From assembly GCA_018304505.1 (NCBI GenBank), contig JAGVWA010000018.1, positions 1 to 53,203 on the forward strand: 53,203 nt of DNA. Reading direction: 5' to 3'. Within the stretch, counting starts at the first letter, position 1. Each line of letters opens with the position of its first letter. This DNA is from Nanobdellati archaeon (GTDB lineage Archaea; B1Sed10-29; JAGVWA01). This document shows, in pieces, positions 8,382 to 24,729 of this stretch. The notes beneath the pieces are model-generated. The model saw only the letters and a program-made list of their open reading frames with translations. It did not search any database and was not told the origin of the DNA. The translations under genes were made by a program, and so were the position numbers.

Positions 8382-9161
8382 ATGGACTCGGGAAAAATTG
8401 ACATGTACAAGACAGCGCTTTACTTGCTGTTGGCAGTCATTGTGGCAATGCTCTCAGTGATCTTTGTGCCAATTGAACCAAGCTCGGTGATACAGAGCAA
8501 CAGAACTGATGTAAGTATACAAGGCGTTTCGTTCAACATCAGCGCAACTGGCACGGCTACTGTTTATCTCAACCCTGATGAAGTCACGGTAACGCTTGGC
8601 GTGGAAACCCTGGACATGAACGCGCAAGCGTCACAGCAGCAAAATACGCTGGCCATGAACGCTGTAATTGATTCACTCAGGGGGCTTGGCATTCATGACG
8701 ATGACATCAGGACCGTGACGTACAGCCTTACCGAGCAATACGACTACACCAGAGAAACTCGGGTATTTGCTGGTTACAGGACAGCGCACCACGTAACCGT
8801 GACAAGTAATGATGTAAAAAAAGCAGGGTTGATCATTGATTCTGCTTCAAAGGCTGGCGCCAACTACATTGGAGAGATAAACTTTGGCTTGCAAGACGAA
8901 ACCCGGCGTGCGGCATTACTGCAGGCTGTCACAGAGGCCACGCGAAACGCTTACGTAAAGGCCGAGGCCTCATCAAAGGTCTTCGGAGCAGACCAACTCA
9001 AGCCTGTAAACGTGCGCGCAGAACAGGACATCATTTATCCATTGTTCAGGGAATCGCTTGTAGTGGATGTGCAAGGCGCGTCTACTGAGGTAAGTCCAGG
9101 CCAAGTATCCGTGTCAGCAACCGTCACAGTGGACTTCCACGCAAGCGACCTTGGGATATAG
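8382..9161 (+). CDS. SIMPL (DUF541) domain membrane-anchored protein
   Basis: N-terminal TM; G.A.V...PD....LGV, GAN.I..I.F.L, PGQV.VSA.V.V.F patterns. Confidence 0.88.
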   Translation: MDSGKIDMYKTALYLLLAVIVAMLSVIFVPIEPSSVIQSNRTDVSIQGVSFNISATGTATVYLNPDEVTVTLGVETLDMNAQASQQQNTLAMNAVIDSLRGLGIHDDDIRTVTYSLTEQYDYTRETRVFAGYRTAHHVTVTSNDVKKAGLIIDSASKAGANYIGEINFGLQDETRRAALLQAVTEATRNAYVKAEASSKVFGADQLKPVNVRAEQDIIYPLFRESLVVDVQGASTEVSPGQVSVSATVTVDFHASDLGI

Positions 9162-9184
9162 CTTAAACTGTTGAATTGCAAATG

Positions 9185-9192
9185 TTTAAATA
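9185..9192 (+). promoter_or_regulatory. TATA box for Cys leader/tRNA-Cys/cysS unit
   Basis: TTTAAATA ending 24 nt before the ATG at 9216. Confidence 0.55.
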
Positions 9193-9215
9193 AAACGAGG
9201 GGTATAATGAGTTGC

Positions 9216-9260
9216 ATGATTAACCAACGCACATGTTGCTGTTGTACCCAAACGAGGTAA
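9216..9260 (+). CDS. Cys-rich leader peptide MINQRTCCCCTQTR (alternative start 9207, adding MSC)
   Basis: TGT TGC TGT TGT run directly upstream of tRNA-Cys and cysS; lies at the expected transcript start. Confidence 0.7.
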   Translation: MINQRTCCCCTQTR

Positions 9261-9322
9261 TGGTTAGTTCTAGCTCTGTTTCTCTGTTGAGATGAACGCG
9301 GGCTAGTGAAAACTTTGAAAAT

Positions 9323-9469
9323 GCAGGGATGGCAGAGTCTGCGTTGAACTCGTTCAACGAGCTTTCAGCGCGGCTGCAATGGCCATGCACCCGGCTGCAG
9401 TTCAGTTCTCTGTAAACTGGAGGACGGGACAGGAACCGGGAGACACGGATTCGATTTCCGTTCCCTGCT
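9323..9469 (+). tRNA. tRNA-Cys(GCA) with two introns (15/16: 9338-9379; 37/38: 9401-9434)
   Basis: Acceptor GCAGGGA/TCCCTGC plus U73; anticodon arm CCCGG-CTGCAG|A-CCGGG; T arm ACGGA-TTCGATT-TCCGT; BHB-like motif at the D-loop intron. Confidence 0.88.
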
Positions 9470-9491
9470 TTCATCTTATCGGGTAATTAAA

Positions 9492-10052
9492 ATGAATGGT
9501 TTAAATCAATATGACGGAAAAACCTTGCCTGGGTACACAACACCTGATGGCGAAGAGATAGTCATACGCGTAGTGACAAGGTCAGATGTAAGCAAGCTGT
9601 ATACGTTTTACAACAAAATGATAGGCACTGCCCCGTTTTCAAGGTATTTCAATCAATCGGATTCAGAAGAAAAAAAGAAAAAATGGATAAATGATTACAT
9701 TGAGTCAGACTACCAAACACTTGTGGTTGCAGAAGCCAAAAATGAAATCATTGGCTCAATAGGATTAGAGCTTACAGATGTGCCCGGCGCAAGCCATGTC
9801 GGTACATTACGGGGCATATCGGTAATTGAAGCTTGGAAGGGCAAGGATATATCGCGGCATATTGTTGCCGGCGTACTCAGTCTCGCGAAAATTGTTGGTC
9901 TTGAACTCATAATTTTGTCAATTAGGAGTGGGAACAACCTTGCTATAAGCCTATTTATCTCTGCAGGGTTTACAGAATATGGTAGTCTTCCCCAGGGGAG
10001 GAAAATTGATGGCAAGTACTATGATTCAATAATGCTCTTCAAAAAATTGTGA
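9492..10052 (+). CDS. GNAT family N-acetyltransferase
   Basis: LVVAE..EIIG, HVG..GISV, N..AI.LF...GF.EYG, DGKYYD.I.L motifs; stop overlaps cysS start (TGATG). Confidence 0.85.
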   Translation: MNGLNQYDGKTLPGYTTPDGEEIVIRVVTRSDVSKLYTFYNKMIGTAPFSRYFNQSDSEEKKKKWINDYIESDYQTLVVAEAKNEIIGSIGLELTDVPGASHVGTLRGISVIEAWKGKDISRHIVAGVLSLAKIVGLELIILSIRSGNNLAISLFISAGFTEYGSLPQGRKIDGKYYDSIMLFKKL

Positions 10053-11440
10053 TGCAAATGATCAAACTTTACAACACGCTTACACGACAAAAGGAAGAAT
10101 TCAAGACAATAAACGACAAGGAAGTCACTTTTTATAGCTGCGGGCCTACGGTTTACTGGTATGCGCACATCGGCAATCTAAGGGCGTACGTGTTTGCAGA
10201 CCTTCTAAAGAAAACCCTGGAATACAATGGCTACAAAGTAAGGCATGCCATGAACATAACCGATGTTGGTCACCTCACAAGCGACAGCGACACAGGCGAG
10301 GATAAGATGGAGAAAGCCAAAAAGCGCGAAGGGAAAAACGCATGGGAAATCGCCAAGTTCTATGAGGCCGCATTTTTCATGGACACTGATCGGCTCAACA
10401 TCGCGCGGCCAACAATAACGTGCAGGGCAACAGACCACATCAAGGAACAGATAAGCTTAGTAACGGCACTGGAAGAAAAAGGCTACACGTACCGTATTGA
10501 AGACGGAATCTATTTCGACACGTCCAAGTTATCTGATTACGGAAAGCTGGCAAGGCTCGACATTGAGGGCTTAAAGGCCGGCGCGCGCATCGAACTAGTT
10601 CCGGGTAAGAAGAACCCGACGGACTTCGCCCTATGGAAATTTTCCCCAAAAGACGCACAGCGCGACATGGAATGGGACAGCCCGTGGGGCATCGGGTTTC
10701 CAGGATGGCACATTGAATGCAGCGCGATGAGCATGCACCATCTCGGTAATCATTTTGACATACACACAGGCGGTGTTGATCACATTCCAGTACATCACAC
10801 AAACGAGATCGCGCAGTCAGAAAGCGCAACAGGGGAACAGTTCGTGAATTATTGGCTCCATAACGAGTTTGTTAATTTTAAGGACGTGAAGATGAGCAAG
10901 AGCAGCGGGGACATTTTGACATTGGACGTCCTAATAAACAGTGGCTACTCTCCAATGGATTACCGCTACCTGCTTTTGATGAGCCATTACAGAAGCCAAG
11001 TCACGTTTTCATTAGAAGCAATGGACAATGTAAAGAACACCCTCGAGCGGCTAAAGCGGCATGTTGTAGAACTCAGAAAGTCAGGCACAGGAAAAATTAA
11101 CGAAGCGTACGTGACAAAATTCGTTGAGAAAATGAATGACGATCTCAGCACGCCGGAAGCCCTTTCCGTGATGTGGGAGATGGTCCGCGATGATTCCATT
11201 TCAAGTAGCGATAAATACGCCACGCTCCTCGATTTCGACAAAATCCTATCATTGGGCATTGCGGAAATGCAGGAAGAGAAAGTAGAATTGACTCCCGACG
11301 AGCAGGCACTGGTGGAAAAACGCGATAAGGCACGCGCAGAGAAGGATTGGAAAACCAGCGACGAAATTCGGGATGAATTGAAGAAGCGCGGCCTGCAACT
11401 GCTTGACACGCCAGAGGGTACCAAGGTCGAGCAGGCGTAG
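10052..11440 (+). CDS. cysS: Cysteinyl-tRNA synthetase
   Basis: CGPTVY, HIGN, DFALWK, PGWHIECSAM, HH.NEIAQS, KMSKS. Confidence 0.98.
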   Translation: MQMIKLYNTLTRQKEEFKTINDKEVTFYSCGPTVYWYAHIGNLRAYVFADLLKKTLEYNGYKVRHAMNITDVGHLTSDSDTGEDKMEKAKKREGKNAWEIAKFYEAAFFMDTDRLNIARPTITCRATDHIKEQISLVTALEEKGYTYRIEDGIYFDTSKLSDYGKLARLDIEGLKAGARIELVPGKKNPTDFALWKFSPKDAQRDMEWDSPWGIGFPGWHIECSAMSMHHLGNHFDIHTGGVDHIPVHHTNEIAQSESATGEQFVNYWLHNEFVNFKDVKMSKSSGDILTLDVLINSGYSPMDYRYLLLMSHYRSQVTFSLEAMDNVKNTLERLKRHVVELRKSGTGKINEAYVTKFVEKMNDDLSTPEALSVMWEMVRDDSISSSDKYATLLDFDKILSLGIAEMQEEKVELTPDEQALVEKRDKARAEKDWKTSDEIRDELKKRGLQLLDTPEGTKVEQA

Positions 11441-24646: not shown

Positions 24647-24654
24647 TAAGAGGG

Positions 24655-24729
24655 GCTTCGCTTGCAACGAAACTTCGTTTCGTTGAAGATTTGAAAAACA
24701 AGTTTTTTCAAATTTGGCAAACGCGAAGC
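24655..24729. repeat. Branched palindromic element (Y-shaped hairpin) after tRNA-Ala
   Basis: Outer GCTTCGC/GCGAAGC; inner CAACGAAAC/GTTTCGTTG and ATTTGAAAAA/TTTTTCAAAT. Confidence 0.75.

What the first reader, a model, noticed from the sequence alone, without database searches (positions are those of the whole stretch)
9270..9340. Leader contains an anti-tRNA segment: a switch that may gate tRNA-Cys folding or splicing
Segment 9273-9287 (GCTCTGTTTCTCTGT) has two possible states. It can sit in hairpin CTAGCTC..GGGCTAG (9270-9306), or it can pair over 15 bp (with G-U pairs and one bulge) with gene positions 9323-9338 (GCAGGGA-T-GGCAGAGT). That target includes the acceptor strand and the GCAG that forms the splice helix of the 15/16 intron. 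Inference: a ribosome reaching the uORF stop (9258-9260) would melt the hairpin base and release the anti-tRNA strand, while stalling on Cys codons would let the tRNA fold. A tRNA as the expression platform of an attenuator would be unusual.
Basis: partly seen in the sequence, partly recalled or inferred. Interest (0 to 1): 0.8.

Follow-up and report, generated by a model that had tools for sequence, protein, structure and literature searches.

The report
Leader pairing with tRNA-Cys: probably incidental
A stretch of the RNA leader in front of an archaeal cysteine tRNA gene can indeed pair with the start of that tRNA, but the match is about what chance allows, loses to the normal tRNA fold and is not seen in relatives; the neighbouring short reading frame with four cysteine codons in a row is the more interesting feature.

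Summary
The sequence facts hold. 9273-9287 can pair with 9323-9338 (10 Watson-Crick pairs, 5 G-U, one bulge). It also forms the 5' arm of hairpin 9270-9306. The target is the 5' exon of a two-intron tRNA-Cys(GCA).

The switch is not shown:
- **Chance:** p = 0.07-0.15 for the whole leader; p = 0.002 for the arm picked post hoc; p = 0.04 once the downstream search space is counted.
- **Full precursor:** the duplex costs +12.4 kcal/mol, with pair probability 1e-6 to 1e-9.
- **Nascent RNA:** it wins only in some unfinished transcripts, and only if 9270-9272 is masked. An archaeal ribosome at the stop codon should reach only about 9269-9270.
- **Relatives:** 16 relatives with tRNA-Cys upstream of cysS show no such complementarity. 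No close relative carrying this leader was found.

What looks real is an operon. A TATA box at leaderless distance precedes a 14-codon ORF with four consecutive Cys codons, then the hairpin, tRNA-Cys, a GNAT gene and cysS, with no inner promoter or terminator. It resembles the mycobacterial leaderless poly-Cys attenuators but sits in a small archaeon in front of a tRNA.

The anti-tRNA gate remains a roughly 15-20% possibility.

The parts
9185..9192 (+). TATA-like box, 31 nt before ATG 9216
   Evidence: In 533 long ORFs of this genome, TATA-like hexamer starts pile up at -31 to -27 from the ATG (16, 32, 43, 44 and 13 hits, against 0-9 at other positions). This fits a leaderless start at 9216.
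9216..9260 (+). Leaderless short ORF MINQRTCCCCTQTR* (an in-frame ATG at 9207 would add MSC)
   Evidence: It is the only ATG-started ORF of 32 codons or fewer holding a run of 4 or more Cys codons, among 20 such runs in 1.83 Mb counted on both strands.
9234..9245 (+). Four consecutive Cys codons (TGT TGC TGT TGT)
   Evidence: Cys makes up 0.99% of residues in ORFs of 200 aa or more.
9218..9269 (+). Predicted 9-bp long-range helix 9218-9226 / 9261-9269 that encloses the short ORF
   Evidence: MFE and centroid structures. Prediction only.
9270..9306 (+). Leader hairpin, 15 pairs, -15.1 kcal/mol
   Evidence: The whole leader has z = -1.72; 9 of 200 shuffles fold as well.
9273..9287 (+). The 'anti-tRNA' strand, which is most of the hairpin's 5' arm
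9323..9337 (+). tRNA-Cys exon 1 (positions 1-15): the 5' acceptor strand and the GCAG of the D stem / splice helix
9338..9379 (+). Intron 1 (42 nt, at 15/16): helix 9332-9335 / 9374-9377, bulges 9336-9338 and 9378-9380, inner helix 9339-9348 / 9364-9373
   Evidence: Hand parse. G001 and G011 have an intron at the same position, and G013, G012 and G004 have none.
9380..9400 (+). tRNA-Cys exon 2, up to G37 of the anticodon loop CUGCAG
9401..9434 (+). Intron 2 (34 nt, canonical 37/38 position); the central helix has 3 of 4 pairs
   Evidence: Hand parse.
9435..9469 (+). tRNA-Cys exon 3, ending in discriminator U73
9492..10052 (+). GNAT acetyltransferase gene, overlapping cysS by 4 nt
   Evidence: It reaches no curated NCBIfam cut-off.
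10049..11440 (+). cysS, cysteine--tRNA ligase
   Evidence: TIGR00435 scores 467.6 bits against a cut-off of 340.

Best explanation
The region is the 5' end of one transcription unit: promoter, leaderless poly-Cys short ORF, hairpin, two-intron tRNA-Cys, GNAT, cysS.

My reading of how it works:
- Transcription starts at about 9216, and the first 14 codons are translated.
- How quickly the ribosome clears the four Cys codons reports the supply of charged tRNA-Cys. This is the principle of the mycobacterial leaderless poly-Cys ORFs.
- RNase P then removes the roughly 107-nt leader and the splicing endonuclease removes the two introns.

The pairing of 9273-9287 with the tRNA 5' exon is most likely a by-product. 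A pyrimidine-rich hairpin arm lies 36 nt upstream of a purine-rich tRNA start, and G-U pairs make such matches cheap. It does not gate the finished precursor.

Which step the short ORF controls is not resolved. My best guess, with low confidence, is that ribosome position changes how the leader folds (helix 9218-9226 / 9261-9269 and the hairpin base) and so how well the precursor is processed or how long it survives.

- **Shown:** the sequence features, the promoter geometry, the lack of inner signals, and the folding energies.
- **Inferred:** translation of the short ORF, cysteine sensing, and any regulatory output.
For: - **Chance level:** duplex p = 0.07-0.15 for the whole leader and 0.037 per arm once all downstream RNA is allowed.
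- **Both arms find partners:** the 3' arm finds an equally good partner (-20.7 kcal/mol at about 9335-9352) and a 7-bp match to the trailer. This is expected from base composition. Local alignments, direct and reverse-complement, give p = 0.24 and 0.22.
- **Energetics:** the full precursor prefers hairpin plus tRNA by 12.4 kcal/mol.
- **Relatives:** 16 of 16 show no excess complementarity.
- **Operon:** no TATA-like box lies within 60 nt of the tRNA, unlike most of the 33 other tRNA genes (judged by eye). There are no terminator-like sites in 9100-9560.
- **Promoter:** the TATA box sits at the genome's leaderless distance.
- **Short ORF:** a poly-Cys run is rare here. From 20 such runs in 1.83 Mb, the chance of one falling in 160 nt is about 0.002 (my arithmetic).
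- **Processing enzymes:** RNase P RNA and EndA are both present.
- **Precedent:** abstract and section 11 of bioRxiv 10.1101/834739.
Against: - With a mask to 9272 the duplex takes over in nascent RNAs ending at 9340, 9380 and 9400 (0.94-1.0).
- The size of the mask-dependent change (0.73 and 0.87) was reached by 0 of 200 shuffled spacers. Shuffling also destroys the hairpin, so this control is biased in favour of the switch.
- The arm-specific p is 0.002.
- A direct-path estimate puts a barrier of up to 22 kcal/mol between the duplex state and the native fold (an upper bound), so a trap could persist.
- The poly-Cys ORF itself was found in none of the 15 order loci or the 80 metagenome cysS loci. 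Its function therefore rests on one genome.
Confidence: 0.5

Rival explanations
1. A ribosome finishing the short ORF frays the hairpin. The freed 5' arm captures the emerging tRNA 5' exon before its 3' partner is made. The precursor is trapped misfolded, so less tRNA-Cys (and perhaps less cysS mRNA) matures when cysteine is plentiful. Stalling on the Cys codons leaves the hairpin closed and the tRNA folds.
For: - Nascent-transcript folding: duplex 0.94-1.0 with a mask to 9272, against 0.15 or less with a mask to 9258, at ends 9340, 9380 and 9400.
- 0 of 200 shuffled spacers reach the same change.
- Arm-specific p = 0.002.
- Barrier out of the duplex state up to 22 kcal/mol.
- The stop codon lies 9 nt before the hairpin.
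- The direction of regulation is sensible.
Against: - The whole-leader p is 0.07-0.15.
- The duplex vanishes at ends 9345 and 9352, reaches only 0.18 at end 9440, and is absent at 9475.
- The expected ribosome edge is about 9269-9270 (PMC7261190 passages), where predictions range from 0.003 to 0.97.
- There is no conservation in 16 relatives.
- There are no RNA data.
Confidence: 0.2
2. Nothing here is regulatory. The Cys codon run is a chance feature of a long, plain 5' leader that RNase P removes, and the hairpin is ordinary intergenic structure.
For: - The short ORF is unique to this genome among the 15 order loci and 80 metagenome loci.
- The leader fold is only mildly unusual (z = -1.72).
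- 20 runs of 4 or more Cys codons occur elsewhere in the genome by chance.
Against: The run lies in an ATG-started 14-codon ORF, exactly at leaderless distance from a TATA box. It sits directly upstream of the genome's only detected tRNA-Cys and of cysS. The chance of such placement is about 0.002, or about 0.0003 if an in-frame ATG is required (my arithmetic).
Confidence: 0.25
3. The hairpin is a decayed partial copy of the tRNA acceptor region or of intron 2. This would explain why both of its arms match tRNA strands.
For: The leader and intron 2 share an 8-mer. The 3' arm matches the acceptor 3' strand plus trailer at 16 of 22 positions.
Against: Neither match exceeds shuffles (p = 0.24 and 0.22). 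The repeat finder reports no direct repeat family.
Confidence: 0.05

Closest known systems
Polycysteine leaderless short ORF attenuators of mycobacteria (Canestrari et al., bioRxiv 10.1101/834739; abstract and section 11 read)
   Same: A leaderless first cistron with consecutive Cys codons, placed ahead of cysteine-related genes. Ribosome stalling reads charged tRNA-Cys, and a leader RNA duplex is involved.
   Different: Those are bacterial and tested. A stalled ribosome frees a sequestered ribosome-binding site. Here the organism is an archaeon, the next element is a tRNA gene rather than a ribosome-binding site, nothing has been tested, and no relative shares it.
Classical leader-peptide transcription attenuators (trp, his, pheST; recalled, not from a call)
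   Same: A run of codons for the cognate amino acid in a short leader ORF, a stop codon close to a hairpin, and proposed alternative pairings.
   Different: There is no terminator hairpin with a U tract (0 sites), and no run of four or more T between 9200 and 9490. The polymerase is archaeal.
Designed RNase P riboswitch (Nucleic Acids Res 2021, PMC7897497; search listing and passages seen)
   Same: Alternative leader structures that decide whether a pre-tRNA is processed.
   Different: It is synthetic and ligand-driven, and it hides the single-stranded leader rather than the acceptor strand. My searches listed no natural ribosome-driven case.
Archaeal multi-intron and split tRNAs (review PMC4090602, passages)
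   Same: Bulge-helix-bulge introns at non-canonical positions. In split tRNAs, leader and trailer segments pair.
   Different: Here the leader pairs with its own 5' exon, and that duplex forms no bulge-helix-bulge motif.
T-box riboswitch upstream of aminoacyl-tRNA synthetase genes (recalled)
   Same: The physiological logic: tRNA charging state controls a synthetase operon.
   Different: There is no T-box. Rfam found 0 matches at E up to 10 in 8800-9900. The proposed sensor is a ribosome, not a tRNA-binding leader.

Membership tests
Leader-peptide (ribosome-mediated) attenuator | A short ORF with a run of codons for the regulating amino acid | tested here: met
   Four consecutive Cys codons in a 14-codon ORF.
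Leader-peptide (ribosome-mediated) attenuator | The ORF lies in the 5' leader of the genes it would control, on the same transcript | tested here: inconclusive
   The TATA box is at leaderless distance. There is no TATA-like box near the tRNA and no terminator-like site. No RNA data exist.
Leader-peptide (ribosome-mediated) attenuator | Mutually exclusive RNA structures chosen by ribosome position | tested here: inconclusive
   This is seen only in some nascent-transcript predictions with a mask to 9270-9272, and never in the full precursor.
Leader-peptide (ribosome-mediated) attenuator | An expression platform: an intrinsic terminator or a sequestered ribosome-binding site | tested here: not met
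   0 terminator-like sites. The element that follows is a tRNA.
Leader-peptide (ribosome-mediated) attenuator | Conservation of the ORF and the pairings in relatives | tested here: not met
   The ORF is absent from 15 order loci and 80 metagenome loci. No same-family genome is held.
Archaeal intron-containing tRNA | A cloverleaf with the expected identity elements after intron removal | tested here: met
   ARAGORN calls the joined exons tRNA-Cys(GCA). Discriminator U73 is present. The exons align with intronless orthologues.
Archaeal intron-containing tRNA | A bulge-helix-bulge or relaxed motif at the splice sites | tested here: met
   Intron 1 has a 4-bp helix, two 3-nt bulges and a 10-bp inner helix. 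Intron 2 has 3 of 4 central pairs. This is a hand parse, using the motif definition in PMC4090602.
Archaeal intron-containing tRNA | The splicing endonuclease is encoded in the genome | tested here: met
   PF01974 at C7:26257-26511, 99.2 bits.
T-box riboswitch | A match to the Rfam T-box model | tested here: not met
   0 Rfam matches at E up to 10.

The most novel reading that the evidence does not exclude
An archaeal amino-acid attenuator that uses the pre-tRNA itself as its output. A ribosome finishing a leaderless poly-Cys ORF releases a decoy strand. The decoy traps the nascent tRNA-Cys 5' exon (the acceptor strand plus the splice helix of the 15/16 intron). Maturation of tRNA-Cys, and with it the co-transcribed cysS message, would then follow cysteine supply.
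Probability: 0.15. Interest if true: 0.85.

Novelty: new variant of a known kind. Interest (0 to 1): 0.5.

Why it matters
Ribosome-sensed leader peptides are textbook bacterial regulation. The literature searches I ran listed no archaeal case, and none placed in front of a tRNA gene.

If the poly-Cys ORF works, this would be a small, testable example in a reduced archaeal genome. It would sit in the one operon that makes both tRNA-Cys and its synthetase.

If the leader-tRNA pairing were also functional, it would be a natural counterpart to designed switches of tRNA processing.

As it stands, the pairing adds little beyond what base composition explains.

Tried and rejected
- **Intron enumeration:** I removed every candidate intron 1 and ran ARAGORN. 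It was too permissive (249 hits with many anticodons), so I used a hand parse plus orthologue alignment instead.
- **Close relatives:**
  - The genome is the only one of its family held.
  - The metagenome scan with CysRS gave at most 60% identity.
  - The runs that hold the locus carry it unchanged, with 0 differences in the pieces laid, so no population covariation can be read.
- **RNA evidence:** no RNA holder is listed.
- **Duplication origin of the hairpin:** not supported.
- **A second amino-acid-run leader in the genome:** a WWW short ORF on contig C19 lies inside a 119-aa ORF on the opposite strand, so I dropped it.
- **Minus-strand ORF 9220-9474:** no Pfam family, and it lies over the tRNA.
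- **Row left out at first:** the G008 locus was omitted and added.
- **Wrong parse:** the first tRNA parse for L107 was wrong and was redone.

Full report
**Setting.** The window is contig C1 of a 917,116-bp archaeal genome in 21 contigs, 92.8% complete.
- It encodes a thermosome subunit, an archaeal RNase P RNA (90.7 bits) and a tRNA splicing endonuclease.
- Around the finding lie a SIMPL-family gene (8382-9161), a 330-nt gap, a GNAT gene (9492-10052) and cysS (10049-11440).
- The stretch 9200-9480 occurs once in the genome.

**The tRNA.**
- ARAGORN finds no tRNA here and no tRNA-Cys among 33 tRNAs in the genome. Rfam finds nothing in 8800-9900 at E up to 10.
- Read by hand, 9323-9469 has a 7-bp acceptor stem, a T arm, the anticodon loop CUGCAG/A and discriminator U.
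- Two insertions interrupt it: 42 nt at position 15/16 and 34 nt at 37/38.
- ARAGORN calls the joined exons tRNA-Cys(GCA).
- Orthologues in G013, G012 and G004 have no insertion at 15/16 and align across the junction. G001 and G011 have an intron at the same place.
- Intron 1 shows a full motif: a 4-bp helix 9332-9335 / 9374-9377, two 3-nt bulges and a 10-bp inner helix. This matches the definition in PMC4090602.
- The precursor folds far better than shuffles (z = -4.42, 0 of 200).

**The observation.**
- All 15 proposed pairs exist: 10 Watson-Crick and 5 G-U, with T9330 bulged. The duplex is worth -18.6 to -19.6 kcal/mol.
- The same strand is the 5' arm of a 15-pair hairpin, 9270-9306, worth -15.1 kcal/mol.

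**Is it more than chance?**
- Best duplex anywhere in the 107-nt leader against tRNA nt 1-20: 7.2% of 2000 dinucleotide shuffles and 14.9% of 5000 random genomic 107-mers do as well.
- The 18-nt arm alone, chosen after the fact: p = 0.0022 and 0.0015. If the arm may pair anywhere in 9307-9475: p = 0.037.
- The other arm finds an equally strong partner (-20.7 kcal/mol near 9335-9352). It also has a 7-bp perfect match to the 3' trailer.
- This is what one expects when a pyrimidine-rich and a purine-rich arm face a purine-rich tRNA 5' end and its pyrimidine-rich 3' end.
- Watson-Crick-only local alignments, direct and inverted, are unremarkable (p = 0.24 and 0.22).

**Folding.**
- *Finished precursor.* In 9216-9475 the best structure (-95.1 kcal/mol) has the leader hairpin and the tRNA.
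  - Forcing the duplex costs 12.4 kcal/mol, or 7.6 to 15.4 kcal/mol with ribosome masks.
  - Duplex pair probabilities are 1e-6 to 1e-9.
- *Unfinished transcripts.* Here the picture is mixed.

  | Transcript end | Duplex, mask to 9272 | Duplex, mask to 9258 |
  |---|---|---|
  | 9340 | 1.0 | 0.15 |
  | 9345 | 0.02 | 0.0004 |
  | 9352 | 0.001 | 0.007 |
  | 9380 | 0.94 | 0.002 |
  | 9400 | 0.97 | 0.0006 |
  | 9440 | 0.18 | 0.0001 |

- The mask-dependent change at ends 9380 and 9400 (0.73 and 0.87) was reached by 0 of 200 shuffled spacers. Shuffling removes the hairpin, so this control favours the switch.
- A direct-path search puts the barrier out of the duplex state at 22 kcal/mol or less, an upper bound.
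- In Haloferax the ribosome's 3' edge lies 15-16 nt from the P-site codon (PMC7261190, passages).
  - With the stop codon in the A site, the edge would fall at about 9269-9270, touching only the first hairpin pair.
  - With a mask to 9270, the duplex probability ranges from 0.003 to 0.97 depending on transcript length.

**Relatives.**
- No genome of the same family or genus is held.
- In the order, 16 of 18 genomes have a cysS match, G000 included. I read the upstream sequence of the 15 loci other than G000.
- 14 of those 15 have tRNA-Cys on the same strand within about 400 nt of cysS; the exception is G007.
- Two metagenome loci (L022, L025) show the same arrangement.
- In these 16 relatives the best duplex between the upstream region and the tRNA start is no better than shuffles (p = 0.10 to 0.93).
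- Those I read closely (G011, G013, G012, L022, L025) have a TATA-like box close to the tRNA, so they probably lack a long leader (judged by eye).
- None of the 15 order loci or the 80 metagenome loci has an ATG-started ORF with three or more consecutive Cys codons upstream of cysS.
- Public runs that hold the locus carry it without differences in the pieces laid.
- Conservation therefore gives no support, but the right comparison, a sibling genome with this leader, is not available.

**What looks real.**
- The TATA-like box at 9185-9192 starts 31 nt before ATG 9216. In 533 long ORFs of this genome, such boxes pile up at -31 to -27, so leaderless messages are common here and 9216 fits.
- The ORF reads MINQRTCCCCTQTR.
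- Runs of four or more Cys codons occur 20 times in 1.83 Mb counted on both strands. Only 3 have an in-frame ATG upstream, and only this one sits in an ORF of fewer than 32 codons.
- Cys is 0.99% of residues in long ORFs.
- Most other tRNA genes have a TATA-like box some 25-45 nt upstream; this one has none within 60 nt (by eye).
- There are no terminator-like sites in 9100-9560.
- The simplest reading is one transcript from 9216 through tRNA-Cys, GNAT and cysS.
- This mirrors the mycobacterial leaderless poly-Cys attenuators (10.1101/834739, abstract and section 11). The differences are that the host is an archaeon and the next element is a tRNA rather than a ribosome-binding site.

**Verdict.**
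The proposed switch is neither shown nor excluded.
- I put about 0.5 on a real cysteine-sensing leader with an incidental anti-tRNA match.
- I put about 0.2 on a functional kinetic trap, about 0.25 on nothing regulatory at all, and about 0.05 on a decayed tRNA-derived copy.
- My literature searches listed no natural ribosome-driven control of tRNA folding and no archaeal poly-Cys leader. They cover only the held library.

Noticed in passing
Order relatives: loci L103, L104, L106-L117; metagenome loci L022, L025: tRNA-Cys(GCA) lies directly upstream of cysS on the same strand in 14 of the 15 order loci read (all except G007) and in two metagenome loci. This is a conserved tRNA-synthetase pairing. 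G000 alone has a GNAT gene inserted between the two.
   Followed up: partly
Genome contigs, e.g. window 24648-24672 (after tRNA-Ala); also C5, C8, C12, C16, C20, C21: Many tRNA genes are followed within a few bases by a shared trailer of about 20 nt (GGGGCTTCGC...CAACGAA type). It may be a processing or termination element.
   Followed up: no
Whole genome G000: ARAGORN finds only 33 tRNAs, many of them with introns, and none for Cys, Glu, Gln, Thr or Val. Multi-intron tRNA genes like this one are probably being missed.
   Followed up: no
L117:1233-1481 (G001) and L103:1240-1503 (G011): The tRNA-Cys genes of G001 and G011 carry a third, long intron in the T loop. The two introns share conserved blocks at both ends, which suggests an embedded functional RNA.
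   Followed up: no
L104 (G013) and L112 (G008), about 150-250 nt upstream of tRNA-Cys: An identical 21-nt stretch opens a short ORF (MRRDLLC...) in two genera of one family. It could be a conserved short ORF or an RNA element ending on a Cys codon.
   Followed up: no
Window 9290-9296 and 9470-9476; 9316-9320 and 9471-9475: The 3' trailer of the tRNA can pair either with the hairpin's 3' arm (7 perfect pairs) or with the leader just upstream of the tRNA (5 pairs, extending the acceptor stem). Neither pairing exceeds chance.
   Followed up: partly
Whole genome G000: TATA-like hexamers peak sharply at 28-30 nt before the ATG of long ORFs, and Shine-Dalgarno-like motifs peak at -14 to -11. The genome appears to mix leaderless and leadered messages.
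   Followed up: partly
Window 10049-10052: The GNAT stop and the cysS start overlap by 4 nt, which suggests translational coupling of the two genes.
   Followed up: no
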